A stretch of DNA of 64,000 nucleotides. Source: Mustelus asterias (taxonomy: Eukaryota). Below the pieces are notes generated by a model. It was not told the DNA's origin, did not search any database, and saw nothing but the letters and a program-made list of their open reading frames with translations. The translations under genes were made by a program, and so were the position numbers. The stretch spans positions 62,001 through 126,000 of the forward strand of contig NW_027590123.1 of the NCBI RefSeq assembly GCF_964213995.1, written 5' to 3'. Every line of letters starts with the position of its first letter. The first letter of the stretch is position 1. This document shows, piece after piece, positions 2,915-64,000 of this stretch.

Positions 2915-3515
2915 TTTAGATCTACCTGTAGTGGTAGGAAAAACACTATTTACTATCCAGGATAAAATAAATGTCCTTTCAGTGGAAATGTGCTCACCCA
3001 GGCTCAAAGAGCATCAGAGAACTAGAAGCAAAGTTGTGAGACCGGCCAGTCCAGCAGAAAGAAACCCTCCGACCCTCCCACTTCATCCACCGTCAAAATG
3101 AACATGGTTCAGTCCTGGATGTGATTAATAGCAGCAATAACAACAGAACCCAACCCCTGTCATCATTTGTGAACTCACTGGTGTCTCTGCAGGCTGGATG
3201 ATTGAGTGAATCCTTTCCCACACGGAGCAGGGGAATGGTCTCTCCCCAGTGTGAACTCACTGGTGTTCCCGCAGGCTGGATGACCTTTTAAACCTCTGTG
3301 CAGTGAGAGCAGCTGAACGGTCTCTCCTCAGTGTGAATGCACTGGTGGATCATCACATCCCGAGAACTTTTGAAACCACTTCCACAATCCGAGCAGTTAA
3401 AGGGTGTCTCATTGGTGTGAGTGAGATTGTGGCTCAGCAGGCTGGATGAATGAGTGAATTCCTTCCCACACACAGAGGAGGTGAATGGTCTCTCCCTGGT
3501 GTGAACTCACGGTGT
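2915..3515 (-). pseudogene. 3' end of a ZNF paralogue (about 4 decayed fingers plus conserved 3' element)
   Basis: ORF 3288..3473 CGKEF..HTNETPF..CSHC; HK*-* end near 3160-3170; 3' element is the reverse complement of 6680..6950. Confidence 0.85.
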
Positions 3516-3715
3516 GATCACACGGGTTGGATTCTGCTGTTATTGTTTCTGCTCTCAATTACATCCAGGACTGCATTTTGTTCATTCTCACAGTTGGTCA
3601 ATGGGGAGGGTCGGAGGGTTTCTTTCTGCTGGACTGACCGGTCTCACAAAGTTTGCCTCCAGTGGGCTGATGCTCTTTGAGACTTGTTGCGAATACCTGG
3701 TTTCAGATTTCACAC

Positions 3716-3930
3716 CACATTCTGAGGTGTTGACCAATGGGAACTCTGGAGGACCGGAAGGACTCTGGTCCTCCAGCCAATCAGAGCTCCTCCATTGTCT
3801 GAATGCGGAAGTGGACAATGAGCTTGTTCAGCTGCTCATTCCTGCCCAGCAAAGCTGCTGCTGCTCTCTCTCTGAATGAAGATTGAGCTTCAGACAGACT
3901 CAACCTTCCTCCTGTCTCTAACATCTGGGA
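3716..3930 (+). promoter_or_regulatory. recurrent ZNF promoter/first-exon module (CCAAT - GGAGGACC..GGTCCTCC - CCAAT)
   Basis: homologous copies near 10190..10365(-), 20740..20890(+), 32690..32830(-) and 33055..33260(+); followed by catct|GTGAGT donor at 4061. Confidence 0.65.
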
Positions 3931-3936
3931 GAGTGT

Positions 3937-4009
3937 GGGCCAGTGGCGCAATGGATAACGCGTTTGACTACGGATCAGAAGATTCCAGGTTCGACTCCTG
4001 GCTGGCTCG
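3937..4009 (+). tRNA. tRNA-Arg(ACG)
   Basis: 73 nt GGGCCAGTGGCGCAATGGATAACGCGTTTGACTACGGATCAGAAGATTCCAGGTTCGACTCCTGGCTGGCTCG. Matches vertebrate tRNA-Arg-ACG as recalled, except one C>T giving a G.U pair in the anticodon stem. A and B boxes intact; T4 run at 4035..4038. Confidence 0.95.
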
Positions 4010-5021
4010 ATTTGAAAAATAGTTTGTGAGCTCCTTTTGACCTAAAAGAGGCCAACATCTGTGAGTAAAACACTTTCTTTGCTCCGCTTTTGCGTTTCTT
4101 TTGCATTCTGGGGGAAATTGGGGACTTGTTGAATTTTTAACTTCCAGGTCACCACTCGCTGCCTGAATAAAAATCCTCCTCACATTCTTCATGTATCTGT
4201 AACCAGGTAATACAGTGCATTACACACATCATCAATCATTAAAACTTTAAAGTGGCTGTCAGCTTGAAGATTAATCATAGATCATTTGCACTTCCACAAC
4301 CCCCTGAGGCAGCGGCTTCCAGGTAATGACCTTTCTGCACCTTTCTGCACCGAAATAAAATTCTTCCCCATACCCTTCTCCTTCTCCCAATCCAGTTATC
4401 CGGTCCCACATATGGCACAGATTTTAATTTCTAGCGTGTAGGCCGGTCATTACACGTAGATTTTCAGATCTCTGTGTCCAGTACAGGAAGTAGTCAGCAT
4501 GGATCCGTTAATCAGCCATAGACTTGGGAGGTTGTATACTCAGGAGAGCAGAGTGAGAATTGAGGGAGAATGTGTGGGATGGAGATTGACAGCTTTTGGG
4601 GAATGAGAGAGGAAAGAATGTTCCATAGAAACTAGAATTGTCTGTTCTGAATTTCTATCCTGTGCTGACAGTGATGTCTGTTGTAAATTCCTTTCATAGA
4701 TATCAGGAGATGAGGATTTATAGACAGAAATTTCAAACTAAACATCACATGAAGATTTGACCTCAATATCATCGACCTTTGAATCTAGAAAAGCAATGTT
4801 TGTCTGATCTGTTTGCTTCAGGAGATTTTAAACATCAGTGTGACTGGAACACACCCGAGTGAGAGTGTTCCAGTCCACCGATAGTGGAAAGAGCTTTAAC
4901 CAGTTACACAGGCTGAAACAACATTGCACTGTTTACAGTGAAGAGAGATCGTACACGTGTTCTGTGTGGACAAGGATTCAACTGATCATCAAACCTGGAG
5001 AGTCACAAGGACACCCGCATC

Positions 5022-6548
5022 ATGGAGAAACTGTGGAAATGTGACGATTGTGGACAAGGATTCATGTTGCCCTGTGATTTGGAAATCCATCAATGCAGTC
5101 ACACTCGGGAGAGACCCTTCACTTGCTCAGTGTGTGGGAAGGGATACATTAAGTTCTCCCACCTGCAGAGTCACAATCTCACTCACACCAATGAGAGACC
5201 CTTTAAATGCTCTGACTGTGGGAGCGGATTCAGAAGCTCTGGAGAACTGGTGTCCCACCAGCGCATTCACACTGAGGAGAGACCGTTCAGCTGCTCTCAC
5301 TGCACAATGAAATTTAAATGGTCATCCACACTGCGGAGACATCAGCGAGTTCACACCGGGGAGAGACTGTTCAGCTGCTCCATGTGTGGGAAGGGATTCT
5401 CTCGGTCCTCCGAACTGCGGGCACACCAGCGAATTCACACTGGGGAGAGACCGTTCACCTGCAATGTGTGTGGGAAGGGATTCTTTCGGTCATCCGCCCT
5501 GCTGACGCACAAAGTCACTCACACCAATGAGAGACCCTTTAAATGCTCTGACTGTGAGAGTTGCTTCAAAAGTTCTCGGGATCTGATGTCCCACCAGCGC
5601 ATTCACACTGAGGACAGACCGTTCAGCTGCTCTCACTGCACAATGAGATTTAGATCATCATCAAACCTGCGGAACCATCAGCGAGTTCACTCCGGGGAGA
5701 GACCATTCACTTGCTCTGACTGTGGGAAGGGATTCACGCAGTTATCCGCCCTGCTGACACACCAGCGAGTTCACACCGGAGAGAGGCCATTCACCTGCTC
5801 TGTGTGTGGGAAGGGATTCACTAATTTATCCAACCTGCTGAGTCATAAAGTCACTCACACCAGTGAGAGGCCCTTTAAATGCTCAGACTGTGGGAGCGAA
5901 TTCAAAATTTCTGGGGAACTGGTGTCCCACCAGCGCATTCACACTGAGGACAGACCGTTCAGCTGCTCTCTCTGCACAAAGAGGTTTAAGAGGTCATCCA
6001 CACTGCAGAGACACCAGCGAGTTCACACCAGGGAGAGACCATTCATCTGCTCTGTGTGTGGGAAGGGATTCAGTCAGTCATTCACCCTGCTGACACACCA
6101 GCGTCTTCACACCGAGGAGAGACCATTTACCTGCACCGAGTGTGGGAAGGGATTCACTCTGTCATCCACCCTGCTGACTCACCAGCAAGTTCACAGCGGG
6201 GAGAGACCGTTCACCTGCTCAGAGTGTGGGAACAGATTCACTCGGTTATCCAGCCTGCACAGACACAAAGTCACTCACTCCCAGGAAAGACCCTTTAAAT
6301 GCTTTGACTGTGGGAGTGGCTTCAAAATTTCTGAGCATCTGATAGACCACCAGCGCATTCACACTGGGGAGAGACCGTTCAGCTGCTCTCACTGCACAAA
6401 GAGGTTTGGAAGGACATGCACACTGAGGAGACACCAGCGAGTTCACACTGGGAGAGACCATTCACCTGCTCTGTGTGTGCGGAAGGATTCTCTCGATACC
6501 CCAGCTGCTGACGCACAATGTCCCTCACACCCAGGAGAGACCCTTTAA
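5022..6548 (+). CDS. C2H2 zinc-finger protein, 17 tandem fingers, frameshifted tail
   Basis: 508-aa ORF with HTGERPF linkers; a 1-nt deletion near 6450 shifts the last fingers out of frame. Confidence 0.9.
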   Translation: MEKLWKCDDCGQGFMLPCDLEIHQCSHTRERPFTCSVCGKGYIKFSHLQSHNLTHTNERPFKCSDCGSGFRSSGELVSHQRIHTEERPFSCSHCTMKFKWSSTLRRHQRVHTGERLFSCSMCGKGFSRSSELRAHQRIHTGERPFTCNVCGKGFFRSSALLTHKVTHTNERPFKCSDCESCFKSSRDLMSHQRIHTEDRPFSCSHCTMRFRSSSNLRNHQRVHSGERPFTCSDCGKGFTQLSALLTHQRVHTGERPFTCSVCGKGFTNLSNLLSHKVTHTSERPFKCSDCGSEFKISGELVSHQRIHTEDRPFSCSLCTKRFKRSSTLQRHQRVHTRERPFICSVCGKGFSQSFTLLTHQRLHTEERPFTCTECGKGFTLSSTLLTHQQVHSGERPFTCSECGNRFTRLSSLHRHKVTHSQERPFKCFDCGSGFKISEHLIDHQRIHTGERPFSCSHCTKRFGRTCTLRRHQRVHTGRDHSPALCVRKDSLDTPAADAQCPSHPGETL

Positions 6549-6679
6549 ATGCTCTGACTGTGGGAATGGTTTCAAAAGCTCTCAGGAACTGATGATCCAC
6601 CAGTCCATTCACAGCTGCTGTGTGTGGGAAGAAATTCACCAGTTCATCCCTCCTGCTGAGACACCAGCGAGTTCACAAG

Positions 6680-6950
6680 TGATGACAGGGGTTGGATTCT
6701 GCTGTTATTGCTGCTGTTAATCACATCCAGGACTGAACCATGTTCATTCTGACAGTTGGTGAAGCGGGAGGGTCGGAGGGTTTCTTTCTGCTGGACTGGC
6801 TGGTCTCACAACTTTGCTTCCAGTGGGTTGATGCTCTCTGAGCCTGGGAGAGCACATTTCCACTGAAATGACCCACACAAACTGACGAAGAACATTTATT
6901 TTATCCTGGACAGTAAATAATGTTTTTCCTACCACTACAGGTAGATCTAC
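6680..6950 (+). repeat. conserved ZNF 3' element (3'UTR), cluster-wide
   Basis: copies at 2915..3165(-), 3515..3716(+), 22419..22473(+), 29705..29928(-), 55698..55895(+) and 63015..63200(-). Confidence 0.85.
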
Positions 6951-7502
6951 AGTAAGTACATTTGTCTCTGTTCCATTGAGTCTACAGCACAGGGCCGGGC
7001 CAGTCGGCCCAATTGGTCTGTGTCAGTATTTATGCTCCACATGAGCCTCCACCCACCCCTCTTCATCTCCCCCCATCAGCATATCCTTCTATTCCTCTCT
7101 CCCTCATGTATGTATCTAGCTTCCCCTTCAATGTATTCATGATGTTCACCTCAACCACTCACTGTGGTAGTGAGTTCCACATTCTCACCACTCGCTGGTA
7201 AAGAGGTTTCTCACTGAAATCCCTATTGGATTATTGAACCCCTTCATAATCTTAAAGACTTCCATCAGGTCACCCTTCAGTCTTCTCTTTTCTAGAGAAA
7301 AGCAGCCCCAGCCTTTCCTGAGGGTTAAATGCTCTCAGTTCTGGGATTATTCTTGTGAATCTTTGTTGCTCCTTCTCCAGTGCCTCTATTTCCTTTTTCT
7401 AAATGGAGATCACAAATGTTGACAATGCTCCCAGTGTAGCCGAACCCTGATTCTAAACAAGTTGAACAGAACCTCCCTGCTGTTCAATTCTATCCCTCTA
7501 GA

Positions 7503-9896: not shown

Positions 9897-10450
9897 TAGG
9901 TCATTACCTGGAAGCTGCTGCCTCAGAGGGTTGTGGAAGTGCAAATGATCCATGATTAATCTTCAAGCCGACAGCCACGTTAAAGTTTTACATTTGGCCA
10001 TAAATGAGCAGATTGATGCTGTGTGTAATGCACTGTATTACCTGGTTACAGATACATGAAGAATGTGAGGAGGATTTTTATTTAGGCAGCGAGTGTTAAC
10101 CTGGAAGTTAAAAATTGAAGCTCAAAATGAACATGGAAAGGGGGAGAAAAGAAAGTGTTTTACTCACAGATGTTATAGACAGGAGGAAGTTTGAGTCTGT
10201 CTGAAGCTCAATCTTCATTCAGAGAGAAGCAGCAGCAGCTTTGCTGGGCAGGAATGAGCTCATTGTCCACTTCCGCAGTCAGAAAACGCGGGAGCTTTGA
10301 TTGGCTGGAGGACCAGACTCCTTCCGGTCCTCCAGGTCTTTCCATTGGTCAACACCTCAGCATGAGGATCAGGGGTTGGGCTTTCTCCCGCACATGCGCA
10401 GCTTCCTCTCGCCTTTGAACATGCGCAGTCCTGGGCCGGGGGAGCCGGGG
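9897..10450 (-). promoter_or_regulatory. orphan promoter/exon-1/intron module, inverted copy of 3716..4330; leftward arm of a divergent promoter
   Basis: direct alignment to 3716..4330 without the tRNA; NRF1-type catgcgca at about 10394 and 10420. Confidence 0.65.
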
Positions 10451-10843
10451 AGATCACGGAGCAGCTTCTCACTCTGGCCGGAGCCGCCAGCCGGTTGCCT
10501 GGAAACCTTGGCTGGAGGAGGTGGAAGGGGGAGGGGAACAATGGTTGGGGGCGGGGCTCCCGGGTCCGCGCGGCGGAGATCCCACCCCCTGACCTTGGGG
10601 GAGTGGACAGAGTAAAACTTCCTCCTGCCTTAAAAGAGGCAACATCTGTGAGTAAAACACTTTCTTTTCTCCCCCTTTCCATTTATTTTCTCATTCTGGG
10701 GGAAATTGGGGACTTGCAGCAACTGAAGGTAAAGGAAGTGAATCCAGTCTGTACATTCCACACATTGTTACTCCAGTCAGATAGACATATATCTGTCTGG
10801 CAGCCTGCATGGAGATTTCCAGCTCTCTGTGTCCAGGACAGGA

Positions 10844-11630: not shown

Positions 11631-11652
11631 ACAGGACAGGAAGAAAATGCAG

Positions 11653-11718
11653 GACAGGAAGCAGTGAGCATGGATCTGTCAATCAGCCTCAATCAGCACC
11701 TTCAGGAGAATTGGGAGG
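11653..11718 (+). other. putative 66-nt internal 5' exon carrying uATG (MDLSISLNQHLQENWE)
   Basis: cag|GACAGG...GGGAGG|gtgaat; same length at 21065..21130(+) and 31118..31183(-). Confidence 0.55.
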
Positions 11719-12155: not shown

Positions 12156-13424
12156 ATGGAGAAACCATGGAAATGTGGGGACTGTGGGAAGGGATTCAGG
12201 TTCCCATTTCAGCTGGAAATTCATCGACGCAGTCACACTGGGGAGAGACCGTTCACCTGCTCTGTGTGTGGGAAGGGATTCACTCAGTTATCCAGGCTGC
12301 GCGCACACAATCTCACTCACACCCGGGAGAGACTCTTTAAATGCCCTGACTGTGGGAGTGGTTTCAAAAGCACTGCAGAACTTGTAACCCACCAGCGCAT
12401 TCACACTGGGGAGAGACCGTTCAACTGCTCTCACTGCTCAAAGGGATTTAAAAGGTTATACACTCTGCAGAGACACCAGCGAGTTCACACTGGGGAGAGA
12501 CCATTCACCTGCTCTGTGTGTGGGAAGGGATTTGCACAGTCATCCAGCCTGCTGAGTCACAATATAACCCACACCAATGAGAGACCCTTTAAATGCTCTG
12601 ACTGTGGGAGCAGCTTCAAACGTGCTGCGGATCTGAGGGACCACCGGCGCAATCACACTGAGGAGAGTCCGTTGAGCTGTTCTCACTGCACTAAAAAATT
12701 TAGAACATCATCCACACTGCGGAAACATGAACGAGTTCACACCGGGGAGACACCTTTCACCTGCACCATGTGTGGGAAGGGATTCACTCAGTTAAGCCAT
12801 CTCTGGAGACACCAGCGAGTTCACACGGGGGAAAGGCCATTTACCTGCACTGTGTGTGGGCAGGGGTTCACTCAGTTAAACAATCTCCTGAGACACCAGC
12901 GAGTTCACACTGGGGAGAGGCCATTCACCTGCACCATATGTGGGCAGGGATTCACTCAGTCATCCGACCTGCGAATACACCAGCGAATTCACACTGGGGA
13001 GAGACCGTTCATCTGCTCTGTGTGTGGGAAAGAATTCAATGATTCATCCACCCTGCGGGCACACCAACATATTCACACCGGGGAGAGGCCATTCAAATGC
13101 TCTCTGTGTGGGAAGGGATACGTTCACTCTTCTGACCTGCAGACACACCAGCGAATTCACACTGGGGAGAAACCGTTCAGTTGCTCTCACTGCACAAAGA
13201 GGTTTAATAGGTCATCCGACCTGCTGGCACACCAGCGAGTTCATACTGGGGAGAGACCATTCAGTTGTTCTCATTGCACAAAGAGGTTTCATCGGTCATC
13301 TGACCTGCTGAAACACCAGCCAGTTCACACTGGGGAGAAACCGTTCACCTGCTCCATGTGTGGGAAGGGATTCACTCAGTCATCCAGCCTACGGGTACAC
13401 CAGCGGGTTCACACCAGGGAGTGA
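12156..13424 (+). CDS. C2H2 zinc-finger protein, 15 fingers
   Basis: ACCATGG start, MEKPWKCGDCGKGF; ORF ends at a TGA inside a linker. Confidence 0.9.
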   Translation: MEKPWKCGDCGKGFRFPFQLEIHRRSHTGERPFTCSVCGKGFTQLSRLRAHNLTHTRERLFKCPDCGSGFKSTAELVTHQRIHTGERPFNCSHCSKGFKRLYTLQRHQRVHTGERPFTCSVCGKGFAQSSSLLSHNITHTNERPFKCSDCGSSFKRAADLRDHRRNHTEESPLSCSHCTKKFRTSSTLRKHERVHTGETPFTCTMCGKGFTQLSHLWRHQRVHTGERPFTCTVCGQGFTQLNNLLRHQRVHTGERPFTCTICGQGFTQSSDLRIHQRIHTGERPFICSVCGKEFNDSSTLRAHQHIHTGERPFKCSLCGKGYVHSSDLQTHQRIHTGEKPFSCSHCTKRFNRSSDLLAHQRVHTGERPFSCSHCTKRFHRSSDLLKHQPVHTGEKPFTCSMCGKGFTQSSSLRVHQRVHTRE

Positions 13425-20599: not shown

Positions 20600-20890
20600 A
20601 TGGCGGCCGCAGCTCCCACAATCGCCCACGATGGAGAAACCACTCTATCCACCACGCGGGCGGGCCACATTGGACTGCGCATGTCCAGAGGAGAGGGGAA
20701 GCTGCGCATGTGCAAAGAGAGCGCACCCCCCCCTGACCTTCATGCTGAAGTGTTGACCAATGGAACGAGTTGGAGGACCGGAAGGACTCTGGTCCTCCAG
20801 TCAATCAGAGCGCGGGCTTTGTGTGAATGAACATCGAGATGCAGTCAGACAAAATCTTCCTTCTGTCTCTAATATCTGTGAGTAAAACAC
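20600..20890 (+). promoter_or_regulatory. promoter and first exon of the ZNF at 21663
   Basis: taatggcggc (YY1-like), two tgcgcatg (NRF1-like), CCAAT/hairpin module, donor GTGAGT at 20878. Confidence 0.65.
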
Positions 20891-21662
20891 TTTCTTTTCT
20901 CTCCCTTTCAATTTATTTTCTCATTCTGGGGGAAATTGGGGACTTGCAGCAACTGAAGGGAAAGGAAGTGAATCCAGTCTGTACATTCCACACATTGTTA
21001 GTCCAGTCAGATAGACCTATATCTGTCTGGCCGCCTGCATGGAGATTTCCAGCTCTCTGTCCAGGACAGGAAGCAGTGAGCATGGATCTGTCAATCAGCC
21101 TCAATCAGCACCTTCAGGAGAATTGGGAGGGTGAATATTAGATACAGCAGAGTGAGAATGGAGGGAGAGTGTGTGGGATGGAGATCCACAGCTTTTGGGA
21201 AATGAGGGAGGAAAGAATGTTCTATAGAAACTAGAATTGTCTGTTCTGAATTTCTATCTTGTATTGACAGTGATTACTTTAATAAATTCCTTTTACAGAT
21301 TATCAGAAGGTGAGGATTTACAGACAGAATCTCAAATCAAATGACACATCAATATCTGACAGTCATTCAATTCATCACGTCCTGAACATCATCAGCCTTT
21401 GTATCTGGAAGGAGCAATATTTCTCTGTTCTTTTTGCTTCTGGAGATTTTAAACATCAGCGTGACTGGGAATTTACCAAGTCGCACGCACACACCCGAGT
21501 GAGAGTGTTCCAGTGCACTGAGTGTGGAAAGAGCTTTAACCAGTGACACAGTCTGAAAAAAACATTGCGGCATTCACAGCGGGGAGAGACTGTACCTGTG
21601 AGAGGTTCTGTGTGAGATTTAACTGATTGTTTAACCTGGAGAGTCACAAGGACCCCCGCACC

Positions 21663-22421
21663 ATGGAGAAACCGTGGAAATGTGGGGACTGTGGGAAGGG
21701 ATTCAGGTTCCCATCTGAGCTGGAAACTCATCGACGCATTCACACTGGGGAGAGACCATTCACCTGCTGTGTGTGTGGGAAGGGATTCTATGATTCATCC
21801 AACCTGCAAACACACCAACGAATTCACACGGGGAAGAGACCATTCACCTGTTCTGATTGTGGTACCAGATTTACTCAGTTATGTCATCTGCAGACACACC
21901 AGCAAATTCACACTGCGGAGAGACCGTTTACCTGTCCTGTGTGTGGGAAGGGATTCACTGACTTATCCAGCCTGCGGATACACCAGCGAGTACATTCCGG
22001 GGAGAGGCCATTCAACTGTCCTGTGTGTGGGAAAGGATTCACTTGGTTATCCAGCATGCGCAGACACAGAGTCACTCACAGCAATGAGAGACCCTATAAA
22101 TGCTCTGAATGTGGGAGCGACTTCAAAAGCTCTCAGGTTCTGATGTCCCACCAGCGCATTCACACTGAGGAGAGACCGTTCAGTTGCTCTCACTGCGCAA
22201 AGAGATTTAGAATGTCATCCTATCTGCGGGTACACCAGCGAGTTCACACTGGGGAGAAACAATTCACTTGCTCTGCCTGTGGAAAGGGATTCACTCAGTT
22301 AACCAATCTGCAGAGACACCAGCGAGTTCATACTGGGGAGAGGCCATTCACCTGCACCGTGTGTGGGAACGGGTTCACTCAGTCATCCCACCTGCAGACA
22401 CACCAGCGAGTTCACAAGTGA
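21663..22421 (+). CDS. C2H2 zinc-finger protein, 9 fingers
   Basis: ACCATGG start, intact fingers, ends HQRVHK*. Confidence 0.9.
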   Translation: MEKPWKCGDCGKGFRFPSELETHRRIHTGERPFTCCVCGKGFYDSSNLQTHQRIHTGKRPFTCSDCGTRFTQLCHLQTHQQIHTAERPFTCPVCGKGFTDLSSLRIHQRVHSGERPFNCPVCGKGFTWLSSMRRHRVTHSNERPYKCSECGSDFKSSQVLMSHQRIHTEERPFSCSHCAKRFRMSSYLRVHQRVHTGEKQFTCSACGKGFTQLTNLQRHQRVHTGERPFTCTVCGNGFTQSSHLQTHQRVHK

Positions 22422-23384: not shown

Positions 23385-24120
23385 TCGTCAAACCTGGAGA
23401 GTTACAAGGCCGTCCATACCCTGAAGATATGGTGGAAATGTGGGGATTGTAGGAAAGGACTCCATGCCCCCTGTGAACTGGAAACCCATCGACCCAGGCA
23501 CAGCAGAAAGAGGCGTCCATCTGCTCTGTGTGTGGGAAGGGATTCATTGATTCATCCACCCTGCAGCAACACCAGCGAGTTCACACTGGGGAGAGGCCAT
23601 TCACCTGCTCCGTGTGGGGGAAGAGATTCAGTAATTCCTCCATTCTGCTGATATACCAGCAAGTTCACACTGGGGAGAAACCGTTCACTTGTTCTGAGTG
23701 TGGGAAGGGACTCAATGACTCATCAACCCTGCTGATACACCAGCACATTCACACAGGAGAGAGGCCATTCCCCTACTCTGAGTGTAGGAAGGGATTCACT
23801 CAGTTATCCAATCTGCTGAGACACCAGCGCATTCACACCAATGAGAAAACCTTTAAATGCTCTGATTGTGGGAGTTGCTTCAGAAACTCTGCCGACCTGA
23901 AGATCCACCAGTGCATTCACACTGGGGAGAGACCGTTCTGCTGCTCTCACTGCACAAGGAGGTTTCGAACATCATCCAAGCGACTGAGCCATTGGCGAGT
24001 TCACACTGGGGAGAGGCCATTCACCCACCCTGTGTGTGGATGGGATTCACTTGGTCATCGGAGCTGCTGGGACACCAGAGCAGTCACACTGATTGGAGCC
24101 TTTCTTGATGCTCTGACTGT
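23385..24120 (+). pseudogene. decayed ZNF (lost Cys residues, first finger with stop, frameshift)
   Basis: ORF 23528..24142 with CSVW, PYSEC, THPVC; degenerate KWWKCGDC start near 23430. Confidence 0.85.
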
Positions 24121-41659: not shown

Positions 41660-41846
41660 GCGGGGGGGGGGGGCGCAAGTCGGGGGGGGCAAGTCGGGGG
41701 GGCGCAGGTCGGGGGGGGCGCAAGTCGGGGGGGCGCAAGTCGGGGGGGCGCAAGTCGGGGGGGGCGCAAGTCGGGGCGCACCGCAAGTCGGGGCGCACCG
41801 CAAGTCGGGGCGCATCGCAAGTCGGGGGGGGCGCAAGTCGGGGGGC
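41660..41846 (+). repeat. G-rich minisatellite, about 11 units
   Basis: (cgcaagtc-Gn) units. Confidence 0.9.
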
Positions 41847-41857
41847 TCATCTGGAAC

Positions 41858-42163
41858 TCTCACCCATTCCATTGTGACGTCACACCCTCACCCATTCCAT
41901 TGTGACGTCACACACTCACCCATTCCATTGTGATGTCACACACTCACCCATTCCATTGTGATGTCACACTCTCACCCATTCCATTGTGATGTCACACACT
42001 CACCCATTCCATTGTAATGTCACACACTCACCCATTCCATTTTGACCTCACACTCCGACCCATTCCATTGTGACGTCACACCCTCACCCATTCCATTGTG
42101 ACGTCACACCCTCACCCATTCCATTGTGACGTCACACCCTCACCCATTCCATTGTGACGTCAG
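41858..42163 (+). repeat. 28-bp tandem array x11 (mirror array x3 at 40803..40885)
   Basis: unit CACCCATTCCATTGTGACGTCACACCCT. Confidence 0.95.
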
Positions 42164-43404
42164 GGCTTCACTCTCCGATCACAATCCCTGCCGGCCTCCC
42201 ACATGCAGCCTCAATGGCGGCAGTCAGCCCGGGTCTAACACTACAAGCTGCCGCTCCATTTGGTACAAAGGGGGGGACCGGGAAGTTCATTTCCGGGGTT
42301 TGGGTTTGAACAACATGTTTACAAAGCCTCTCCACCCACCCGCCACATTTATCATTCCCCGCACGCCGCCCTCTACCTCGCATTGATCTCGCTTCCAAGT
42401 TAAAACCGTCCGTCTGTCCGTCGCCATTACCCTCACTGCGCATGCTTCAGGTCCCGCCCCTCATTCACTCCGATTGGTTGGAGGATCAGCCGCTCCCGCT
42501 CGGTCCCCCAGCCCCGCCCCCCTCTTCCTATTGGCCCGGAGCTGCCGTCAATCAATCCCCGGGCATTGTGATGTGGAGCATGCGCAGTGTGTATATGCAG
42601 CCAGTGAGTAAGTGCCGGGTGAGCGGGAAAGGTTTAGAAATCAGTGGTGTCGGCCACAAAAACCAGAACAGAGGCGGTCGTGTTAAATATCAAGCGGGTG
42701 AGTAATGTCTGAGTGCGGAAGGGTGCTGGAGCCGGTGGGTGTGTGCCGATGTTTCAGATAAACTTCGATCGACGCCTCAATCCCGGAATGAGAAGCAGCC
42801 GGTTCAACGGTTGAAAGACCCGGATACCGACCGCCATCATTGTAGGGGGCAATGTGTAGAAAAGCGCATGCGTAGCGCCATCTTTATCAGTAGCAGTGCA
42901 GCAGCGCGCGTGCGCAGTGCTCCCTTCAGCAGGCGGACTGAGTGATGGATTTTGGAAACTCTTTTACAAGGGGATGGTTTACACACAGCAAACTCAAATC
43001 AAGAGAATTATTTGTCTCTTCTGAATGGAATTAGCAGTTAGAATGTTTGTTGATCTATCTAATACTGGGAACCATGAACACACAAACTTCTTATTGTTGT
43101 GTTCTCTACCTGAAGGCTGGTCTGACCAAAGTGTCAGGATCTCTGCCATGGGCCGGGCAAAGAGACAGAACCCAAATCCACCCCAGCCAGAATGGGGATT
43201 GAACCCCGTGCTGTCGGCACCAATCTCATCCACACCGGCCAGCGAGACCCCACAAGGAACCAGGCTGCAGTGGCAACAGAAACTTTTATATCCGCTACCC
43301 GTGGAGCCATGGATAGTGATGGGAGAGGCTCCAAATTATTTCCATCATATGACTGACCAGGAATCTCTCCCGCTCTTATTGTCTATCATTGGTGTATGTT
43401 CGAA

Positions 43405-44312: not shown

Positions 44313-45653
44313 ATGCTGACGCGACAGCGAGCTCGCAATAGTGAGAGTTCATTCACCTGCTCCGTGTGTGGGAAGAAATTCATGTGTTCGTCCAACCTTC
44401 TGGCTCACCAACTCGATCACATTGATGAGGAGCCTCTTCAAAGCTCTGACTCTGGGGACAGCGTTGAGACACCTGAGGAACAGGCCCAATACCAGCTCCT
44501 TCACACTGACGAGAGACCGTTCAGCTGCTCCCACTGCGGGAAGAGGTTCAGCCAGTCCTCCCGCCTTGCAGAGCACCAGCTCCTTCACACACACGAGAGA
44601 CCGTTCAGCTGCTCCCACTGTGGAGAGTCGTTCAGCGACTCAGTGCATCTCACTGAGCACCAACAAGTTCACACCAAGGACAGGCCATTCAGCTGCTCCC
44701 AGTGTGGGAAGAGATTCACTCAGTCCTCCCACTGCACAGAGCACCAGCTCATTCATTCTGATGAGAGAAGTTTTAAATGCTCAGAGTGTGAGAAGACCTT
44801 TAAAATGAACAATAGTCTCCTGAGACACCAATGCACTCACAGTGGGGAGAGGCCGTTCCCGTGCTCTGTGTGTGGGAGGAGATTCAATCATTCATTCCAC
44901 CTTCTGAGGCACAAACTTGTTCACACGGGGGAGAAACCATTCACCTGCTCCGAGTGTGGGAATGGATACACTCGCTCATCTGACCTTGTGATACACCAAC
45001 GAATTCACACCGGAGAAAGGCCGTTCACCTGCTCCAAGTGTGGGAGGGGATTCACTCGTTCAACGCACCTTGTGATGCACAAGCGGATTCACATTGGGGA
45101 GAGGCCATTCTCTTGCTCTGTGTGTGGGAAGAGATTCACTCAGTCATCCGCCCTGCGCACACACAAGCGAGTTCACACCGGGGAGAGGCCGTTCACCTGC
45201 TTCGTGTGTGGGAAGAGTTTCCCTCGTTTGTCCCATGTTGTGATACACGAGCGGGTTCACACCGGGGAGAGGCCGTACATTTGTCATGTGTGCGGGAGGG
45301 CCTTTACTTGTTTACACCACGTGCAGAAACACCAGCTTGTTCACACCGGGGAGAAGGCCTTCATCTGCTCCGTGTGTGGGAAGCGTTTCCCTGAGTCCTC
45401 CAGCCTCCAGAGACACGAACGCATCCACACTGGGGAGAAGCCGTTCACCTGCTGTGTGTGTGGGAAGGGATTTGTTCAGTCGTTCGACCTGGTTAAACAC
45501 CGACGAGTTCACACCAGGAAGAAGCTGCTCACCTGCTCTGTGTGTGAGAAGAGATTTACTCGGACATCCCGCCTGCTGAAACACCAGAAACTTCACATCT
45601 TACCAACAAAGCTGGACTCTGCTGTTGCTGCTGAGAATCACACCCAGGACTGA
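44313..45653 (+). CDS. C2H2 zinc-finger protein, 14 intact plus 1 degenerate finger, C-terminal LDSAVAAENHTQD
   Basis: open frame from 44295, first ATG at 44313 (start uncertain); divergent subfamily. Confidence 0.85.
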   Translation: MLTRQRARNSESSFTCSVCGKKFMCSSNLLAHQLDHIDEEPLQSSDSGDSVETPEEQAQYQLLHTDERPFSCSHCGKRFSQSSRLAEHQLLHTHERPFSCSHCGESFSDSVHLTEHQQVHTKDRPFSCSQCGKRFTQSSHCTEHQLIHSDERSFKCSECEKTFKMNNSLLRHQCTHSGERPFPCSVCGRRFNHSFHLLRHKLVHTGEKPFTCSECGNGYTRSSDLVIHQRIHTGERPFTCSKCGRGFTRSTHLVMHKRIHIGERPFSCSVCGKRFTQSSALRTHKRVHTGERPFTCFVCGKSFPRLSHVVIHERVHTGERPYICHVCGRAFTCLHHVQKHQLVHTGEKAFICSVCGKRFPESSSLQRHERIHTGEKPFTCCVCGKGFVQSFDLVKHRRVHTRKKLLTCSVCEKRFTRTSRLLKHQKLHILPTKLDSAVAAENHTQD

Positions 45654-47639: not shown

Positions 47640-48710
47640 GCATTCGCCAAATCCAACTCTTGCACTCATTTGTGAACTCACTGGTGTCTCAGTAGGTTGG
47701 ATGATGGAGTGAGTCCCTTTCCCACACACACAGCAGGCGAATGCACCCTCCTCAGTGTGAACTTGCTAATACGCCAGCAGCTCAGATGAGTCAGCAAATT
47801 CCTTCCTTCACCTGGAGCATCTGAACAGCCTCTCTCCGGAATGAACTTGCTGGTGTGCCGACAGACTGGCAACTGAGTAAATCCATCTCCACAAATGGAG
47901 AATGTGAAAGTTCTCTCCTCAGTGTGACTGTGTTGATCATTTCCCAGTTGAAACGGGTAAATGAATCCCATCCCTCAATCCCCATATGTCCATGCTTTCT
48001 CCATGGTGCTGGTGTCCTTGTGTCTCTCCAGGTTGGATGATCAGTCAAAGCTTCATCCACACACACAACACGCATACAGTCTCTCCTCGCTGTGAATGCT
48101 GTGATGTATTTTCAGGATGTGTAACCGGTTAAAGCTCTTTCCACACTCCGTTCACTGGAACACTCTCACTCGGGTGTGTCTGTGTCTCGGTGCTTTTCCA
48201 GTCACACAGATATTTGAAATAGGGCGGCACGGTAGCACAGTGGTTAGCACTGCTGCTTCACAGCTCCAGGGACCTGGGTTCGATTCCCGGCTTGGGTCAC
48301 TGTCTGTGTGGAGTTTGCACATTCTCCTCGTGTCTGCGTGGGTTTCCTCCGGGTGCTCCGGTTTCCTCCCACAGTCCAAAGATGTGCTGGTTAGGTTGAT
48401 TGGCAATGCTAAAAATTGCCACTTAGAGTCCTGAGATGCGTAGGTTAGAGGGATTAGCGGGTAAATATGTGGGGGTAGGGCCTGGGTGGGATTGTGGTCG
48501 GTGCAGACTCGATGGGCCGAATGGCCTCCTTCTGCACTGTAGGGTTTCTATGAAATCTTTTACCACAGATAGAACAAACAAACATTTCTCCTTCCACATT
48601 GAAAGGTTAATGATATTCAGGTCCTGATGAATCGAGTGATTCTGTTAGATCTCAATGTGATGTTTGGCTATAAGTTCCCGACCTGTAAATCATCCCCTGC
48701 TAATACCCTG
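47640..48710 (-). pseudogene. decayed ZNF terminal exon interrupted by a SINE
   Basis: degenerate MEKAWTY start at 48004, broken fingers, HK* end near 47667. Confidence 0.85.
48222..48552 (+). mobile_element. young full-length HE1-like SINE
   Basis: near-identical to 17905..18246; tgaaat on both sides (possible TSD). Confidence 0.9.
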
Positions 48711-49056
48711 GGAATAATGTTCACAAGAATCATCAATAACCAGCCTCTTGTGCTGTTTGGGTTTCTGTTTCTCTTCCTGTACAATGTAACCCTGCCCTCA
48801 TGTTCTACAGACATCCATTTCCCAAACACTGATCTGCTCGAGGGGGTTCCACCAACCCAAATGTCTGCCTCTGTACCACGGTTAAATTCACGGCTGGGTG
48901 GCCTTGGAAAGGGAGCACGTGGTGTCCACTGCCACTGCCAGGCCTTCCATGACTGGTGGGCTCTTGTGGGGTCTGGGCTGCATCATCAATCCCGGCCCCC
49001 CAGTAATGACATTTTAGTCTCATTAGTTACCTTTCACCCTCATTCTGTTTCATGTC

Positions 49057-50254: not shown

Positions 50255-51178
50255 TCATTTGTGAACTTTCTGGTGTCTCAAAAGGTGGGATGAGTGGATG
50301 AAGGTCTTCCCACAGTCAGAGCAAAGGAATGGCCTCTCCCCAGTGTGAACTCGCTGGTGTGTCAGAAGATTGGCTGAATGAATGAATCCTTTTCCACACG
50401 TGGAGCAGGTGAACGACCTCTTCCCAGTGTGAACTCGCTGGTGTTTCTGGAGGCTGGATGACAGAGTGAATCCTGTCCCACACACTGTACATCTGAATGG
50501 CCTCTCCCCATTGTGAACTCGCTGGTGTGTCAGCAGGTCAGTTGTGGTTCTGTAAGTCTTCTCACACTCAGAGCATTTGAAAAGTCTTTTATCCGTGTGA
50601 ACCAGTTGGTGTTTAGCAAGGTGGGATGATCGTGCAAATGCCTTCTCACACACAGCGCAGGTGAATGGCCTCTCCCCAGTGTGAACTCGCTGGTGTATCA
50701 GCAATTCATTTGTGGTTTTATAACTCTTCTCACATTCAGTACATTTGAGAGGTCTGTTATCAGTGTGAACCAGTCGGTGTGTAGTGAGGTAGGATAATCG
50801 CGTGAATCCCTTCCCACACACAGAGCAGGTGAATGGCCTCTCCCCAGTGTGAGTGCGTTCATGTTCGATGAGGTTCTGTGATCGTATGAACCCCCTCCCA
50901 CAGTGAGAGCAACTGAACTGTCTCTCAGTGTGAACAACCTGGTGCGTGACCAGGTCCTCCGAGCTTTTAAAGTTGCTTTCACAGTCCGAGCGGTTTAACA
51001 GCCTCTCATCAAGGTGAACTTGCTGGTGTGAAAGCAGGTGGGATGACTGAATGAATCCTTTCCCACACATGGAGCAGGTGAATGGTCTCTCCCCAGTGTG
51101 ACTGCGTTGATGATTTTTAAGCTGGGAAGGGTAACTGAACCCCTTCCCACAATCCGCACATTTCCACTGTTTCTCCAT
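50255..51178 (-). CDS. C2H2 zinc-finger protein, 10 intact plus 1 degenerate finger
   Basis: ACCATGG start, MEKQWKCADC, ends HQKVHK*. Confidence 0.9.
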   Translation of the reverse strand: MEKQWKCADCGKGFSYPSQLKNHQRSHTGERPFTCSMCGKGFIQSSHLLSHQQVHLDERLLNRSDCESNFKSSEDLVTHQVVHTERQFSCSHCGRGFIRSQNLIEHERTHTGERPFTCSVCGKGFTRLSYLTTHRLVHTDNRPLKCTECEKSYKTTNELLIHQRVHTGERPFTCAVCEKAFARSSHLAKHQLVHTDKRLFKCSECEKTYRTTTDLLTHQRVHNGERPFRCTVCGTGFTLSSSLQKHQRVHTGKRSFTCSTCGKGFIHSANLLTHQRVHTGERPFLCSDCGKTFIHSSHLLRHQKVHK

Positions 51179-54767: not shown

Positions 54768-55700
54768 ATGGGGAAACCGTGGAAATGTGAGGGTTGTGGA
54801 AAGGGATTCAAGTCCCCATCTGAGTTGGAAATTCATCGACGCAGTCACACCGGGGAAAGACCATTCACCTGCTCTCAGTGTGGGAAGAGATTTACTAATG
54901 CATCCGACCTGCTTACACACCAGCGAGTTCACAGCAGGGAGAGGCCATTCACCTGCTCTGTGTGTGGGAAGAAATTCAGTATTTCATCCAACCTAGTGAG
55001 ACACCATCGAGTTCACACAGGGATGAGACCATTCAGCTGCTCAGTGTGTGGGAAAAGATGCAGAGATTCATCCACCCTACTGGTACACCAACAAGTTCAC
55101 ACCAAGGAGAGGCAATTCATCTGCTCTGACTGTGGGAAGAGATTCACTCGGTCATCCAGTCTGCAGAGGCACCATCGAGTTCACACTGGGGAGAGACCAT
55201 TCACCTGCTCAGAGTGTGGGAAAGGATTCAGAGATTCATCTGACCTGCTGGCACATCAGCGAGTTCACACTGGAGAGAGGCCGTTCATCTGCTCCGTGTG
55301 TGGGAAAGGATTCGGAGATTCCTCCACCCTGCTGATACACCAGCGAGTTCACACTGGGGAGAGACCGTTCACCTGCTCCACTTGTGGGAAGGGATTCACT
55401 CAGTTAGCCAACCTGCTAAGACACCAACAAATTCACAGCGGGGACAGGGAGAGGCCTTTCATCTGCTCAGAGTGTGAGATGGGATTCTGTGAGTTATCTA
55501 CCCTGCTGACACACCAGCGGGTTCACACTGGGGAGAAGCCATTTACCTGCTCCGTGTGTGGGAAGAGATTCAATCGGTCATCGAACCTGCTGACACATCA
55601 GCGAGTCCACACTGGGGAGAGACCATTTACCTGCTCTGTGTGTGGGAAGGGATTCACTCAGTCATCCCACCTGCTGAGACACCAGCGAGTTCACAAGTGA
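54768..55700 (+). CDS. C2H2 zinc-finger protein, 11 fingers
   Basis: ACCATGG start, [10 protein letters not shown], ends HQRVHK*. Confidence 0.9.
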
Positions 55701-56407
55701 TGACAGGGGTTGGATTTTGCTGTTATTGCTGCTGTTAATCACATCCAGGACTGAACCATGTTCATTCTGACAGTTGGTGAAGTGGGAGGGTCAGAGGGTT
55801 TCTTGCTGTTGGACTGACCGGTCTCTCAATTTTCATTCCAGTGGCTGATTCCCTTTGAGCGAGGGCACATTTCCACTGAAATGATCCACAAAAGCAGATG
55901 TCAGATGAGACCGAGATGAGGAAAAAACTTAACTCAAAGTGTAGTGAACTTGTGGAATTCTCTACCACCGAAGGCTGTGGAATCCCAGTCACTGAATATA
56001 TTCAAGGAAGAGAAAGATTTTAGTTTAGATTTTAATGGCTTCAGGTGGTATGGGGAGAATATGGCATTGAGATCGAGGATCAGCCATGATCATATTGAAT
56101 GGTGGAGCAGACTCGAATGGCCTGCTCTTAGTTTCTTACAGTACAGTAATTTTATCCTGAGTAATAACGTCTTTTTCCTACCACTACAGGTCCTTTATCG
56201 CTCATCCGTCCTCATTCTCAGGGTTGGCCGCGCTCTGAACAATCTTTGTCCACTGTTTTCTCAGCTGCTCTCACTGCCTGTCCCATCGAGAGGCCGGTCC
56301 ACATTCCGATATTATCCACCCATCTCGGGCCTTCCTTGCACACATTTTCCAGGTGTTCTGTCTCACATTACCTCTTTTTCCAAACACTCCCTCCCTATTC
56401 ACAACAC

Positions 56408-60759: not shown

Positions 60760-61993
60760 TCAAATTTGATTGAGTTTTTTGAAGGGGTAACTAAGTAGAT
60801 GAGGGCAGTGCAGTTGATGTTGTCAACATGAACTTTAGCAAGATCTCTGACAAAGTACCGCATGGTAGGTTGTTGCATAAGGTTAAAATCTCACGGGATC
60901 CAGGGTGAGGTATCTAAATGGATACAAAATTGGCTTCTTGACAGAAGCCAGAGGGTGGCTGTAGGGGGTTGTTTTTCAAACTGGAGGACTGTGACCAGAA
61001 GTGTGCTTCAGGGATCAGTACTGGGTCCACTGTTATTTGTCATTTATATTAATGATTGGGACGAGAATATCAGAGGCATGGTTAGAAAGTTTGCAGATGA
61101 CACCAAGATTGGTGGCATAGTGGACAGTGAAGAAAGTTATCTCCGATTGCAACGGGATCTTGATCAATTGTGCCAGTGGGCTGATGAATGGCAGATGGAG
61201 TTTAATTGAGACAAACGTGAGGTGATGCATTTTGGTAGATTGAGCTAGGGCAGGACTTACTCAGTTAATGGTAGGGCGTTGGGGAGTAACAGAACAAAGA
61301 GATCGAGGGGTACATGTTCATTGCTCCTTGAAAGTGGAGTCACAGGTGGACAGAATGCTGAAGAAGGCATTCGGCATGCTTGGTTTCATCGGTCAGAACA
61401 TTGAATACAGGAGTTGGGATGTCTTGTTGAAGTTGTACAAGACATTGGTAAGGCCACACTTGGAATAGTGTGTGCAGTTCTGGTCATCCTATTATAGAAA
61501 GGGTATTATTAAACTAGAAATAGTGCAGAAAAGATTTACTAGGATGCAACTGGGACTGGATGATTTGAGTTATAAGGAGAGGCTGGATAGACTGAGACTT
61601 TTTTCTCTGGAGCGTATGAGGCTGAGGGGTGACCTTATAGAGCTCTATAAAATAATGAGGGGCATAGATCAGCTAGATAGTCAATATATTTTCCCAAAAG
61701 TAGGGGAGTCTAAAACTAGAAGGCATAGGTTTAAGGTGAGAGGGGAGAGATACAAAAGTGTCGAAAGGGGTAATTTTTTCACACAGAGGGTGGTGAGTGT
61801 CTGGAACAAGCTGCCAGAGATAGCAGTAGAGGCGGGTACAATTTTGTCTTTTAAAAAGCTTTTAGATAGTTACATGGATAAGATGGGTATAGAGGGATAT
61901 GGGCCAAATGCAGGCAATTGGGATTAGCTAAGGGATTTTTAAAAAAAGGCAGCATGGACACGTTGGGCCGATTTCCATGCTGTAAACCTCTAT
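60760..61993 (+). mobile_element. 5'-truncated CR1 LINE
   Basis: QGSVLGPLLFVIYIND, KFADDTK, LVRPHLE; absent from the paralogous flank near 28985. Confidence 0.95.
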
Positions 61994-62504
61994 GCCTCAC
62001 ATTCAAACTACAGTCCTTCAATTATAACAGAATATGTGGCTGTATGTAGCTGCCTCGGCCGTGGTCAACCCCAACACTGCCTTCTTGAACTGCTGCAATG
62101 CCTGAGGTATAGGTGACCCAAAGTGCTGTTAGGGAGGGATTTCCAGCTACACATTCCTGACTTTCATTAGAATGTAAGTGGGTTCCAGATTGATATATTC
62201 CATTCAACCACACCCAAGGTGAGTTATTCCAATTCCTTTATTGTCCAGGACAATATATTCACAATATCTTTAAAACAGAAATTAAACATTCCCATTTGAT
62301 TTCAGGTACTAACATATTCTGTTCGATTGATCTTTATTGTCAATGTCAGGCTGGGGTTGTTCCCCTTGGAGCAAAGGAGGTTGAGGGGAGATTTGATAGA
62401 GGTGGACAAGATTCTGACAGGTTTAGATAAGGTGGACAAAGAAAATCTGTTCCTATTAGCTGATGGGACAAGGATGACAAGCAAATTTAAAGTTTTGGGT
62501 GGGA

Positions 62505-62852
62505 TCACAGAATCAGAGAAACCCTACAGTGCAGAAAGAGGCCATTTGGCCCATCGGGTCTGCACCGACCACAATCCCACCCAGGCCCTACCCCCATATC
62601 CCTACACATTTACCCGCTAATCCCTCTAACCTACGCATCTCAGGACTCTAAGGGGCAATTTTTAGCATGCCCAATCAAACTAACCCGCACATCTTTGGAC
62701 TGTGGGAGGAAACCAGAGCACCCGGAGGAAACCCACGCAGACACGAGGAGAATGTGCAAACTCCACACAGACTGTGACCCAAGCCGGGAATCGAATCCAG
62801 GTCCCTGGAGCTGTGAAGCAGCAGTGCTAACCACTGTGCTACCGTGCTGCCC
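62505..62852 (-). mobile_element. full-length HE1-like SINE
   Basis: near-identical to 48222..48552; absent from the paralogous flank near 29515. Confidence 0.9.
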
Positions 62853-63189
62853 ATGTGAGGAATAATATTTTGATGCAGCGAATGGTAATGATCTGGAACT
62901 CGCTGCCTACGAGGGTGGAGGAAGTGGAGACAATAAACAATTACAAAGGAAATTGGATGGGCATTTGGGAGGTTTCAAACAGAAATGCTGACTAAATATC
63001 TCTGAACTTCCGAGCACCCTGTCACTCTGTGATCCTTGTGAAATTTGAAACCAGGTATTCGCAACAAGACAAGAGCATCAGCCATTGGAGGCAAAGTTGT
63101 GAGACCGGTCAGTCCAGCAGAAACAAACCCTCCGACCCTCCCCATTGACCAATATAATTGAAAACAGAAACAATAACAGCAGAATCGAC

Positions 63190-64000
63190 CACTGGAACCA
63201 CTCGTGAACTCGCTGGTGTACCAATAGCTGAGATGAAAGACTGAATCTCTTCTCACACACAGAACAGCTGAACGGTCTCTCCCCAGTGTGAATTCCCTGG
63301 TGTGTCTGCAGGCAGAATAACCGAGAGAACCCCTTTCCACACACAGAGCAGGTGAACGGTTTCCACCCAGTGTGAACTCGCTGGTGTGTCTGCTGGCTGG
63401 ATGAATCACTGAACCGCTTCCCACACAGAGTAGGTGAAAGGCCTCTCCCCAATGTGAACTCGCTGGTGCCTCCGCAGGTGGGATGACTGAGTGAATCCCT
63501 TCCCACACAGAGAGCAGGTGAATGGTTTCTCCCCAGTGTGAACTCGCTGGTGTGTCCGCAGGCTGGATGAAGTTATGAATGCCTTCCCACACTGAGAGCA
63601 GGTGAACGGTCTCTCCCCAGTGTGAACTTGCTGGTGTGTCCGCAGGCTGGATGACCGAGTGAATCCCTTTCCACACTGAGAGCAGGTGAACGGTCTCTCC
63701 CCAGTGTGAACTCGCTGGTGTGTCCGCAGGCTGGATGAAGCTCTGAATCCCTCCCCACACTGAGAGCAGGTGAAGGGCCTCTCCCCGGTGTGAACTCGCT
63801 GGTGTCTCCACAGGTTGGAGGACCGAGTGAATTCCTTCCCACACAGAGAGCAGGTGAACGGCCTCTCCCCAGTGTGAACTCGCTGGTGTGTCCGCAGGTT
63901 GGATGAAGCTCTGAATCCCTTCCCACACTGAGAGCAGGTGAACGGCCTCTCCCCAGTATGAACCCGCTGGTGTGTCCGCAGGCTGGAAAACTGACTGAAT
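63190..64000 (-). pseudogene. 3' part of a ZNF (about 9-10 fingers visible) with a frameshift near 63430; continues beyond the window
   Basis: 84-bp finger periodicity; true-frame tail in ORF 63078..63506 ([16 protein letters not shown]). Confidence 0.8.

What the first reader, a model, noticed from the sequence alone, without database searches (positions are those of the whole stretch)
2915..64000. Stereotyped, effector-less ZNF cassette family amplified amid transposons
Seen: about 12 units reuse the same promoter modules, donor, 66-nt exon, acceptor context, fossil 5' fingers, MEKPWKC first finger and 3' element (not every unit has every part), while the finger arrays vary in number (8-17) and contact residues. 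No KRAB, SCAN or BTB coding exon is recognisable. Established: KRAB-ZNFs in tetrapods and FiNZ-ZNFs in cyprinids are fast-evolving TE repressors. Inference: this may be an independent chondrichthyan analogue that works as naked arrays or through short unrecognised peptides (see the findings on the termini).
Basis: partly seen in the sequence, partly recalled or inferred. Interest (0 to 1): 0.7.

Follow-up and report, generated by a model that had tools for sequence, protein, structure and literature searches.

The report
Bare zinc-finger gene family in sharks
This window holds 13 copies or fragments of a gene cassette present more than 2,000 times in a likely shark genome; its predicted proteins are bare, fast-changing DNA-reading zinc-finger arrays with no silencing domain, which likely recognise mobile DNA, although that target is untested.

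Summary
Observation confirmed. The window holds 13 cassette copies or fragments; 8 carry arrays of 8-17 fingers. The exact start motif (Kozak + MEKPWKC) occurs 2,186 times in the genome. The lack of an N-terminal effector is hard-wired. A stop lies 13 codons upstream of the ATG in 84 of 125 sampled units, and the leader is closed in 96 of 96 units with a recognisable acceptor. The 66-nt exon's ATG never reaches the array (0 of 39). The leader is decayed coding sequence, and public sawshark and horn shark gene models end at the same fossil stop. In paralog pairs Cys/His have dN/dS about 0.01, while residues -1/+3/+6 reach 2.05 (1.45-2.91) in fingers 1-3, so the arrays are likely translated and diversifying. 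Short terminal effector peptides are not supported as a general feature. Binding to or repression of transposons was not tested; it rests on analogy and a published ZNF-retroelement correlation. High shark ZNF counts are already in print as numbers, and this scan reported the same family from other DNA (e1-9511618, e1-9590610). Verdict: a new variant of lineage-specific ZNF expansions.

The parts
2906..3500 (-). Unit 0 remnant: degenerate fingers plus 3' element
3514..3714 (+). Orphan 3' element, 94% identical to the one at 29919-29730
3730..4128 (+). Promoter arm (CCAAT module) and first donor of unit 1, interrupted by a tRNA gene
3936..4010 (+). tRNA-Arg(ACG) gene
4700..5021 (+). Unit 1 leader: acceptor, spacer, fossil fingers, TGA 13 codons upstream of ATG
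5022..6548 (+). Unit 1 ORF, 17 fingers, frameshifted end
6677..6960 (+). 3' element (fossil tail peptide and downstream conserved block)
9898..10352 (-). Promoter arm and donor, head-to-head with unit 2
10606..10843 (+). Unit 2 promoter arm, donor and exon-2 acceptor
11652..11717 (+). 66-nt exon with upstream ATG (unit 2)
12156..13424 (+). Unit 2 ORF, 15 fingers, followed by 2-3 dead fingers behind TGA
20753..20877 (+). Unit 3 promoter/exon 1, ending at the ATCT|GT donor
   Evidence: the equivalent donor joins the last-exon acceptor in one contig of run X1
21064..21129 (+). 66-nt exon (unit 3)
21299..21662 (+). Unit 3 leader: spacer plus three fossil fingers, broken by stops and frameshifts
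21663..22421 (+). Unit 3 ORF, 9 fingers, stop one codon after the last His
23391..24142 (+). Broken unit behind a LINE fragment
29730..29930 (-). Unit 4 3' element
29926..30600 (-). Unit 4 ORF, 8 fingers
31119..31184 (-). 66-nt exon (unit 4)
32585..33328 (.). Head-to-head promoter pair of units 4 (-) and 5 (+), with exon 2 of unit 4
34863..35336 (.). Unit 5 fragment (66-nt exon, intron) abutting an inverted promoter arm
37962..38869 (-). Unit 6, broken, with two first-finger starts
40331..42590 (.). Second promoter type, inverted pair with 28-bp repeats, between units 6 and 7
44313..45653 (+). Unit 7 ORF, divergent type, 14 canonical fingers, tail peptide in frame; start codon assumed
47650..48735 (-). 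Unit 8, dead, SINE inserted in fossil finger 1
50255..51178 (-). Unit 9 ORF, 10 fingers
54768..55700 (+). Unit 10 ORF, 11 fingers; fossil fingers 2-3 deleted from its leader
55695..55893 (+). Unit 10 3' element
63037..64000 (-). Unit 11 array and 3' element; its ATG lies outside the window

Best explanation
This is a cluster from a shark zinc-finger gene family of more than 2,000 copies whose predicted proteins are bare C2H2 arrays, which likely bind fast-changing mobile DNA and would repress it without a KRAB-type domain. Shown: the coding frame starts at MEKPWKC in a strong Kozak context, behind a fixed stop; the leader (spacer plus three fingers) and the tail are decayed coding sequence; structural residues are purified while -1/+3/+6 diversify; copies share introns, flanks and inserted repeats. 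Inferred: the ancestor was trimmed at both ends by CGA-to-TGA changes and a linker codon became the start; copies spread by DNA-level segmental duplication within and between clusters; the selective agent is transposons. Most speculative: repression works by occupancy of transposon promoters, or by a finger acting as partner surface, the stereotyped first finger being the best candidate.
For: Family size: 2,186 exact start motifs, control 0; 12 of 23 starts in a contiguous 264-kb block match that motif, so roughly 4,000 starts in all (one block, rough). Start: A at -3 in 84 of 87 and G at +4 in 84 of 87; stop exactly 13 codons upstream in 84 of 125; leader closed in 96 of 96 units with an acceptor; upstream ORF in frame with the array in 0 of 39. 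Fossil-finger-1 codon in the first 100 of 764 hits: 95 TGA, 3 TAA, 1 CGA, 1 AGA. Public sawshark and horn shark models stop at the same RFQTSV (P0122, P0123, P0131). Only 41 genomic copies keep TGEKPWKC; the 20 inspected have a stop 39-83 codons upstream. Selection, 20 disjoint pairs chosen on non-coding similarity: Cys/His 0.00-0.01, Phe/Leu 0.05-0.14, -1/+3/+6 2.05 [1.45-2.91] for fingers 1-3 and 1.69 [1.23-2.45] for all in-register fingers. One contig of run X1 joins the first donor exactly to the last-exon acceptor. ZNF and retroelement ORF counts correlate over 11 chondrichthyan assemblies, rho 0.85. A finger can itself recruit a chromatin partner: Kipferl ZnF4 (PMC11245307).
Against: No binding, expression-level or chromatin data. 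For finger 1 alone, where pairing is safest, contact dN/dS is 1.50 [0.91-2.42], which includes 1 (2.02 [1.24-3.27] with kappa 3). Synonymous divergence is also raised at contact codons (0.42 against 0.32), as expected from conversion or finger shuffling, so part of the excess may not be selection. 33 of 119 closed ORFs have fewer than 5 fingers, and only 70 of 119 have 5 or more and a clean end. A young subfamily that lost the ATG was amplified about 30-fold. The cross-species correlation is not corrected for phylogeny, genome size or assembly quality. The RNA runs are contigs of other organisms, and their RNA status is a guess. The sample is biased toward copies that match the search motifs.
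Confidence: 0.55

Rival explanations
1. Bare, selected DNA binders whose targets are not transposons: satellites, viral DNA, recombination sites, host promoters, other members of the family, or RNA.
For: All sequence results fit any fast-changing target. Fly ZAD-ZNFs expanded without a correlation to transposons (PMC10547256).
Against: Only indirect: the ZNF-retroelement correlation in chondrichthyans and the zebrafish FiNZ knock-down result.
Confidence: 0.2
2. The family does have an effector, hidden from this analysis: a cryptic acceptor just before the ATG, stop read-through into the tail peptide, or a spliced C-terminal module.
For: AG dinucleotides lie at -23, -21 and -14 from the ATG. 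The tail LQGLDSAVIAAVNHIQD-type peptide is in frame in 9 of 119 closed ORFs and in window unit 7. An earlier unchecked note (e1-8795615) reports dozens of members spliced to a Harbinger-derived tail.
Against: Those AGs have only 42-57% pyrimidines upstream, and contigs of the RNA-guess runs continue through the fossil fingers with the stops intact (loose ends). Behind the stop the tail often carries a second stop or a frameshift. Public models containing the spacer have unrelated upstream sequences; 19 were scanned and show no effector family.
Confidence: 0.12
3. Mostly neutral birth-and-death: a duplication-prone cassette in repeat-rich clusters; only folding is selected and the contact diversity comes from relaxed constraint, conversion and finger shuffling.
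For: Many broken copies; near-identical multi-kb units with their inserted repeats scattered over many contigs, one subfamily without ATG; the 5' module is more homogeneous (4-6% from consensus) than the last exon (14-17%), pointing to conversion or module swapping; raised synonymous divergence at contact codons.
Against: Contact dN/dS exceeds 1 with intervals above 1 for fingers 1-3 and for all in-register fingers. At the His-Gln-Arg CGA codon, TGA is rarer than CAA (8 against 19, p 0.026).
Confidence: 0.13

Closest known systems
FiNZ-ZNFs of cyprinid fish (PMC10547256; parts 1-2 of 9, passages and rows of Supplemental Data 1 read)
   Same: Lineage-specific, hundreds of clustered tandem C2H2 genes amid repeats and RNA genes, with positive selection at contact residues.
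   Different: FiNZ is a conserved 28-aa N-terminal domain on its own coding exon; here the upstream exons cannot be read into the array. Repression was shown for FiNZ-ZNFs and is untested here.
KRAB-ZNFs of tetrapods and lobe-finned fish
   Same: Single array exon after small upstream exons, clusters, high turnover, diversifying contact residues.
   Different: No KRAB match in the genome search (0 of 76 candidates, no positive control) or in 1.04 Mb with a validated local profile.
KRAB-like ZNFs of ray-finned fish (PMC11603059, passages read)
   Same: Proposed non-tetrapod transposon control by tandem ZNFs.
   Different: They carry an N-terminal domain proposed to bind TRIM33; the paper names only PRDM9 for cartilaginous fish.
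Drosophila Kipferl (PMC11245307, passages read)
   Same: Precedent for a C2H2 finger serving as the partner-binding surface.
   Different: A single ZAD-bearing gene; no such interaction is shown here.
Public elasmobranch gene models ('zinc finger protein 239-like' and uncharacterised; P0023, P0051, P0121, P0144)
   Same: Same first finger or spacer; P0023 begins with MEKPWKC.
   Different: Automated names only, often chimeric with LINE sequence; no family description found.

Membership tests
KRAB-ZNF | N-terminal KRAB domain in frame with the array | tested here: not met
   No profile hit; leader closed in 96 of 96
KRAB-ZNF | Tandem C2H2 array on one 3' exon, clustered genes | tested here: met
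KRAB-ZNF | TRIM28/SETDB1-dependent silencing of bound elements | not testable with these tools
   needs ChIP and knock-down
FiNZ-ZNF | 28-aa acidic N-terminal domain on an upstream coding exon | tested here: not met
   Upstream ORF in frame in 0 of 39; no FiNZ profile was run, but no N-terminal extension passes the stop via the canonical acceptor
FiNZ-ZNF | Positive selection at base-contacting residues | tested here: met
   counting method, with the caveats given
FiNZ-ZNF | Expression at genome activation and repression of young transposons | not testable with these tools
   only contig-level RNA of other organisms
SCAN-ZNF | SCAN domain upstream of the array | tested here: not met
   146 SCAN-like matches among 150 scored of 604 candidates, none listed in the window's contig or the sampled clusters; none in 1.04 Mb
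BTB-ZNF | N-terminal BTB domain | tested here: inconclusive
PRDM9-like | PR/SET domain upstream of the array | tested here: inconclusive
   No PR/SET profile search of DNA; the closed leader argues against it; the skate hit with a PR domain, P0046, lacks the MEKPWKC finger
Lineage-specific tandem ZNF expansions (broad class) | Hundreds to thousands of ORFs with 5 or more fingers and rapid turnover | tested here: met
Processed retrogenes | Intron loss | tested here: not met
   Introns and inserted repeats are kept in clustered and dispersed copies

The most novel reading that the evidence does not exclude
Sharks run one of the largest vertebrate sequence-specific transposon-recognition systems, thousands of genes, with no effector domain at all: an ancestor shed its N- and C-terminal extensions through fixed stops before the main shark lineages split, and silencing is delivered by the arrays themselves or by the invariant-framework first finger.
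Probability: 0.3. Interest if true: 0.75.

Novelty: new variant of a known kind. Interest (0 to 1): 0.5.

Why it matters
How animals without KRAB/TRIM28 turn zinc-finger binding into silencing is open. This family removes the usual answer, a dedicated domain, in thousands of genes, so it tests directly whether bare arrays suffice. Its shared start sequence allows family-wide knock-down, as was done for more than 400 FiNZ genes in zebrafish. The result also warns that automated shark ZNF models with long N-termini are often artefacts.

Tried and rejected
DNA search of the genome with the 66-nt exon returned nothing because common words are skipped; replaced by patterns.

A first dN/dS run (contact 2.29) was set aside as biased, since pairs and fingers were chosen on non-contact sites; one search is used.

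No RNA holder was listed for this exact stretch. No joint for the 66-nt exon was among those shown (lists are cut), so its use is unproven.

TGA read-through or recoding of the leader: rejected, as net frameshifts occur in 54 of 97 spacers and 71 of 110 fossil-finger-2 segments, with no codon periodicity. No SECIS or other Rfam match but the tRNA.

A conserved microprotein from exons 1-2 plus spacer: the spacer is open to the fossil stop in only 6 of 96.

Leader hairpin (lead from e1-9511618): present in the family consensus across fossil fingers 1-2, but median z is -0.73, 23% of 60 copies fall below -2 (20% on the other strand), and double-sided changes are rare among the commonest pair types; four single folds of the 3' part alone were unremarkable. 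Not supported as a selected RNA structure.

Retroposition: isolated copies keep introns or are fragments.

A single-sequence spacer search found nothing. No binding-site prediction, structure prediction or complex prediction was run.
Full report
1. What is in the window. Six-frame scanning finds tandem C2H2 fingers in ten stretches on both strands. Masked self-alignment and module searches resolve 13 units or fragments built from the same parts. Eight carry long arrays of 8, 9, 10, 11, 12, 14, 15 and 17 canonical fingers. Promoter arms stand head-to-head at 10.1-10.8 and 32.6-33.3 kb; 47 of 61 sampled promoter arms have a CCAAT box. At least 24% of the window is SINE or LINE; the names HE1, CR1 and Penelope are recalled and come from no call.

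2. Size and spread. The window lies in a 3.68-Gb genome. Exact patterns give 1,317 hits for the 66-nt exon, 2,186 for the Kozak-MEKPWKC start and 764 for fossil finger 1; reversed controls give 0. Listed hits are concentrated in clusters on a few contigs. In a contiguous 264-kb block 12 of 23 starts match the exact motif, suggesting roughly 4,000 starts; this rests on one block. Hits with the highest identity are elasmobranch proteins (57-64%), and one begins with MEKPWKC (P0023).

3. Sample. I analysed 125 distinct starts from 1.04 Mb. It is not random: 50 loci were picked on the exon pattern, 80 mostly on the start or fossil-finger patterns, plus the contiguous block. Of 119 closed ORFs, 86 have 5 or more fingers, 70 of these with a clean end; 33 have fewer than 5. 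62 stop within two residues of the last His (56 TGA). Ten were flagged as reading into the tail peptide, one of them falsely, leaving 9.

4. The protein is bare at the N-terminus. The ATG has A at -3 in 84 of 87 and G at +4 in 84 of 87. A stop stands exactly 13 codons upstream in 84 of 125. In all 96 of 124 aligned units with a recognisable acceptor, the frame from acceptor to ATG is closed, so no exon spliced there can be fused. The 66-nt exon's ATG opens a short ORF that reaches the array in 0 of 39 units. Spacer and fossil fingers show no third-position excess and many frameshifts, unlike finger 1. The diagnostic codons are mostly TGA with rare CGA or CAA, pointing to ancestral Arg codons; a horn shark model reads FNRSSKLE there (P0121). 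Sawshark and horn shark models end at the same RFQTSV, so that stop is shared across distant sharks. A sister form that keeps TGEKPWKC (41 hits) has a stop 39-83 codons upstream in 20 of 20 inspected; most of these offer an ATG one finger earlier. KRAB and SCAN tests were negative within their limits. A profile of the spacer hit 52 proteins; their upstream parts are unrelated, and 19 scanned show no effector family.

5. Transcripts. No run of record as RNA holds this exact stretch. Contigs from runs guessed to be RNA, of other organisms, cover the cassette at 80% likeness. One contig of X1 skips 423 bases from the first donor exactly to the last-exon acceptor. Three RNA-guess runs have loose ends at or within four bases of that acceptor, with none listed for the large run X19 (lists are cut). 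Loose ends also carry both fossil stops. This is weak support for a spliced, non-coding leader.

6. Selection. In 20 disjoint pairs chosen only on 5' non-coding similarity and compared in strict register, dN/dS is 0.00-0.01 for Cys/His, 0.05-0.14 for Phe/Leu and 0.21-0.35 for linkers. For -1/+3/+6 it is 1.50 [0.91-2.42] in finger 1, 2.05 [1.45-2.91] in fingers 1-3 and 1.69 [1.23-2.45] in all in-register fingers; +2 is below 1. The input was limited to ORFs with 5 or more fingers, which favours intact Cys/His. Synonymous divergence is higher at contact codons, and later fingers may not be true counterparts, so conversion inflates part of the signal. Finger 1 has a fixed framework (Pro at +1 in 81 of 86, Ser at +2 in 80, Glu at +5 in 79) with variable contact residues.

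7. Mode of spread. Young subfamilies share more than 4 kb, including introns and inserted repeats, at about 92-98% identity over many contigs, which fits DNA-level duplication. The exon-66/intron module is 4-6% from consensus against 14-17% for spacer and fossil fingers 1 and 3, also in the 30 units not picked on that exon, so 5' modules appear to be swapped or homogenised.

8. Mechanism. Shown: bare predicted arrays, purified structure, diversifying contacts, very large copy number. Inferred: translation by leaky scanning or re-initiation past weak upstream ATGs (95 of 124 last-exon leaders have none in strong context); a fast-changing DNA target; transposons as that target; repression by occupancy or by a finger-borne partner surface. 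I put the whole at 0.55.

9. Literature. Wells et al. (PMC10547256; parts 1-2 of 9, passages, rows of Supplemental Data 1) list ZNF ORF counts for sharks (catshark 3,586, white shark 1,851; human 697, zebrafish 1,710) but the main text has no occurrence of 'shark' or 'chondrichth'. Their other supplements were not read (Data 3 and 4 are too large here) and may hold shark sequences or predictions. The 11 chondrichthyan rows I retrieved by genus name give rho 0.85 with retroelement ORFs, uncorrected. The catshark genome paper notes zinc-finger clusters of recent duplicates in high-diversity regions of chromosomes 13 and 17 (PMC11979771, passages). The whale shark paper reports KRAB families as lost in cartilaginous fishes (PMC8455134, passages). 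PMC10620051 has no mention of zinc fingers. Six searches found no description of this family's architecture; subscription papers are not covered.

10. Verdict. Real, large and under selection; a new variant of known lineage-specific ZNF expansions, distinguished by a hard-wired lack of an N-terminal effector. This scan has reported the family from other DNA. The transposon role remains a hypothesis.

Noticed in passing
window 3936-4010: tRNA-Arg(ACG) gene sitting inside the promoter module of unit 1, between the CCAAT arm and the donor.
   Followed up: partly
L171-L190 (e.g. G000:C91:390486-394986): Young dispersed subfamily (28 of the first 100 of 119 tail hits) with the tail peptide in frame but the ATG lost; Cys/His still look purified in 8 open copies (1 variant, ratio 0.09), so its start is unknown.
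   Followed up: partly
L151-L170: Sister form that keeps the TGEKPWKC linker; most inspected copies offer an ATG one finger earlier (ME[GS]KST...), matching horn shark model P0121.
   Followed up: partly
window 40331-42590: Second promoter type: inverted pair with 60-bp CCAAT repeats, 28-bp TGACGTCA repeats and a 15-16-bp GC-rich repeat; similar sequence lies upstream of the ATG-less subfamily.
   Followed up: partly
window 21437-21530 and equivalents: Imperfect inverted repeat across fossil fingers 1-2; fossil finger 2 is more conserved (8-9% from consensus) than neighbouring leader (13-17%) without codon signal.
   Followed up: partly
window 20828-20877 and 32585-32644: Exon 1 and exon 2 can be read in phase with the spacer frame, a possible relic of the ancestral N-terminus; public model P0132 joins exon 2 to the spacer.
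   Followed up: partly
window 10844-11640: About 0.8-kb insertion between the promoter and the 66-nt exon; similar sequence lies upstream of L171. Penelope-like by recall only.
   Followed up: no
window 8346-9284 and 37011-37959; 29005-29794 and 61992-63097: Pairs of 90-94% identical LINE-containing blocks that mark local segmental duplications.
   Followed up: no
G000, many contigs: 146 SCAN-like matches scattered outside the sampled clusters, many with stops, probably retrotransposon gag (recalled).
   Followed up: no
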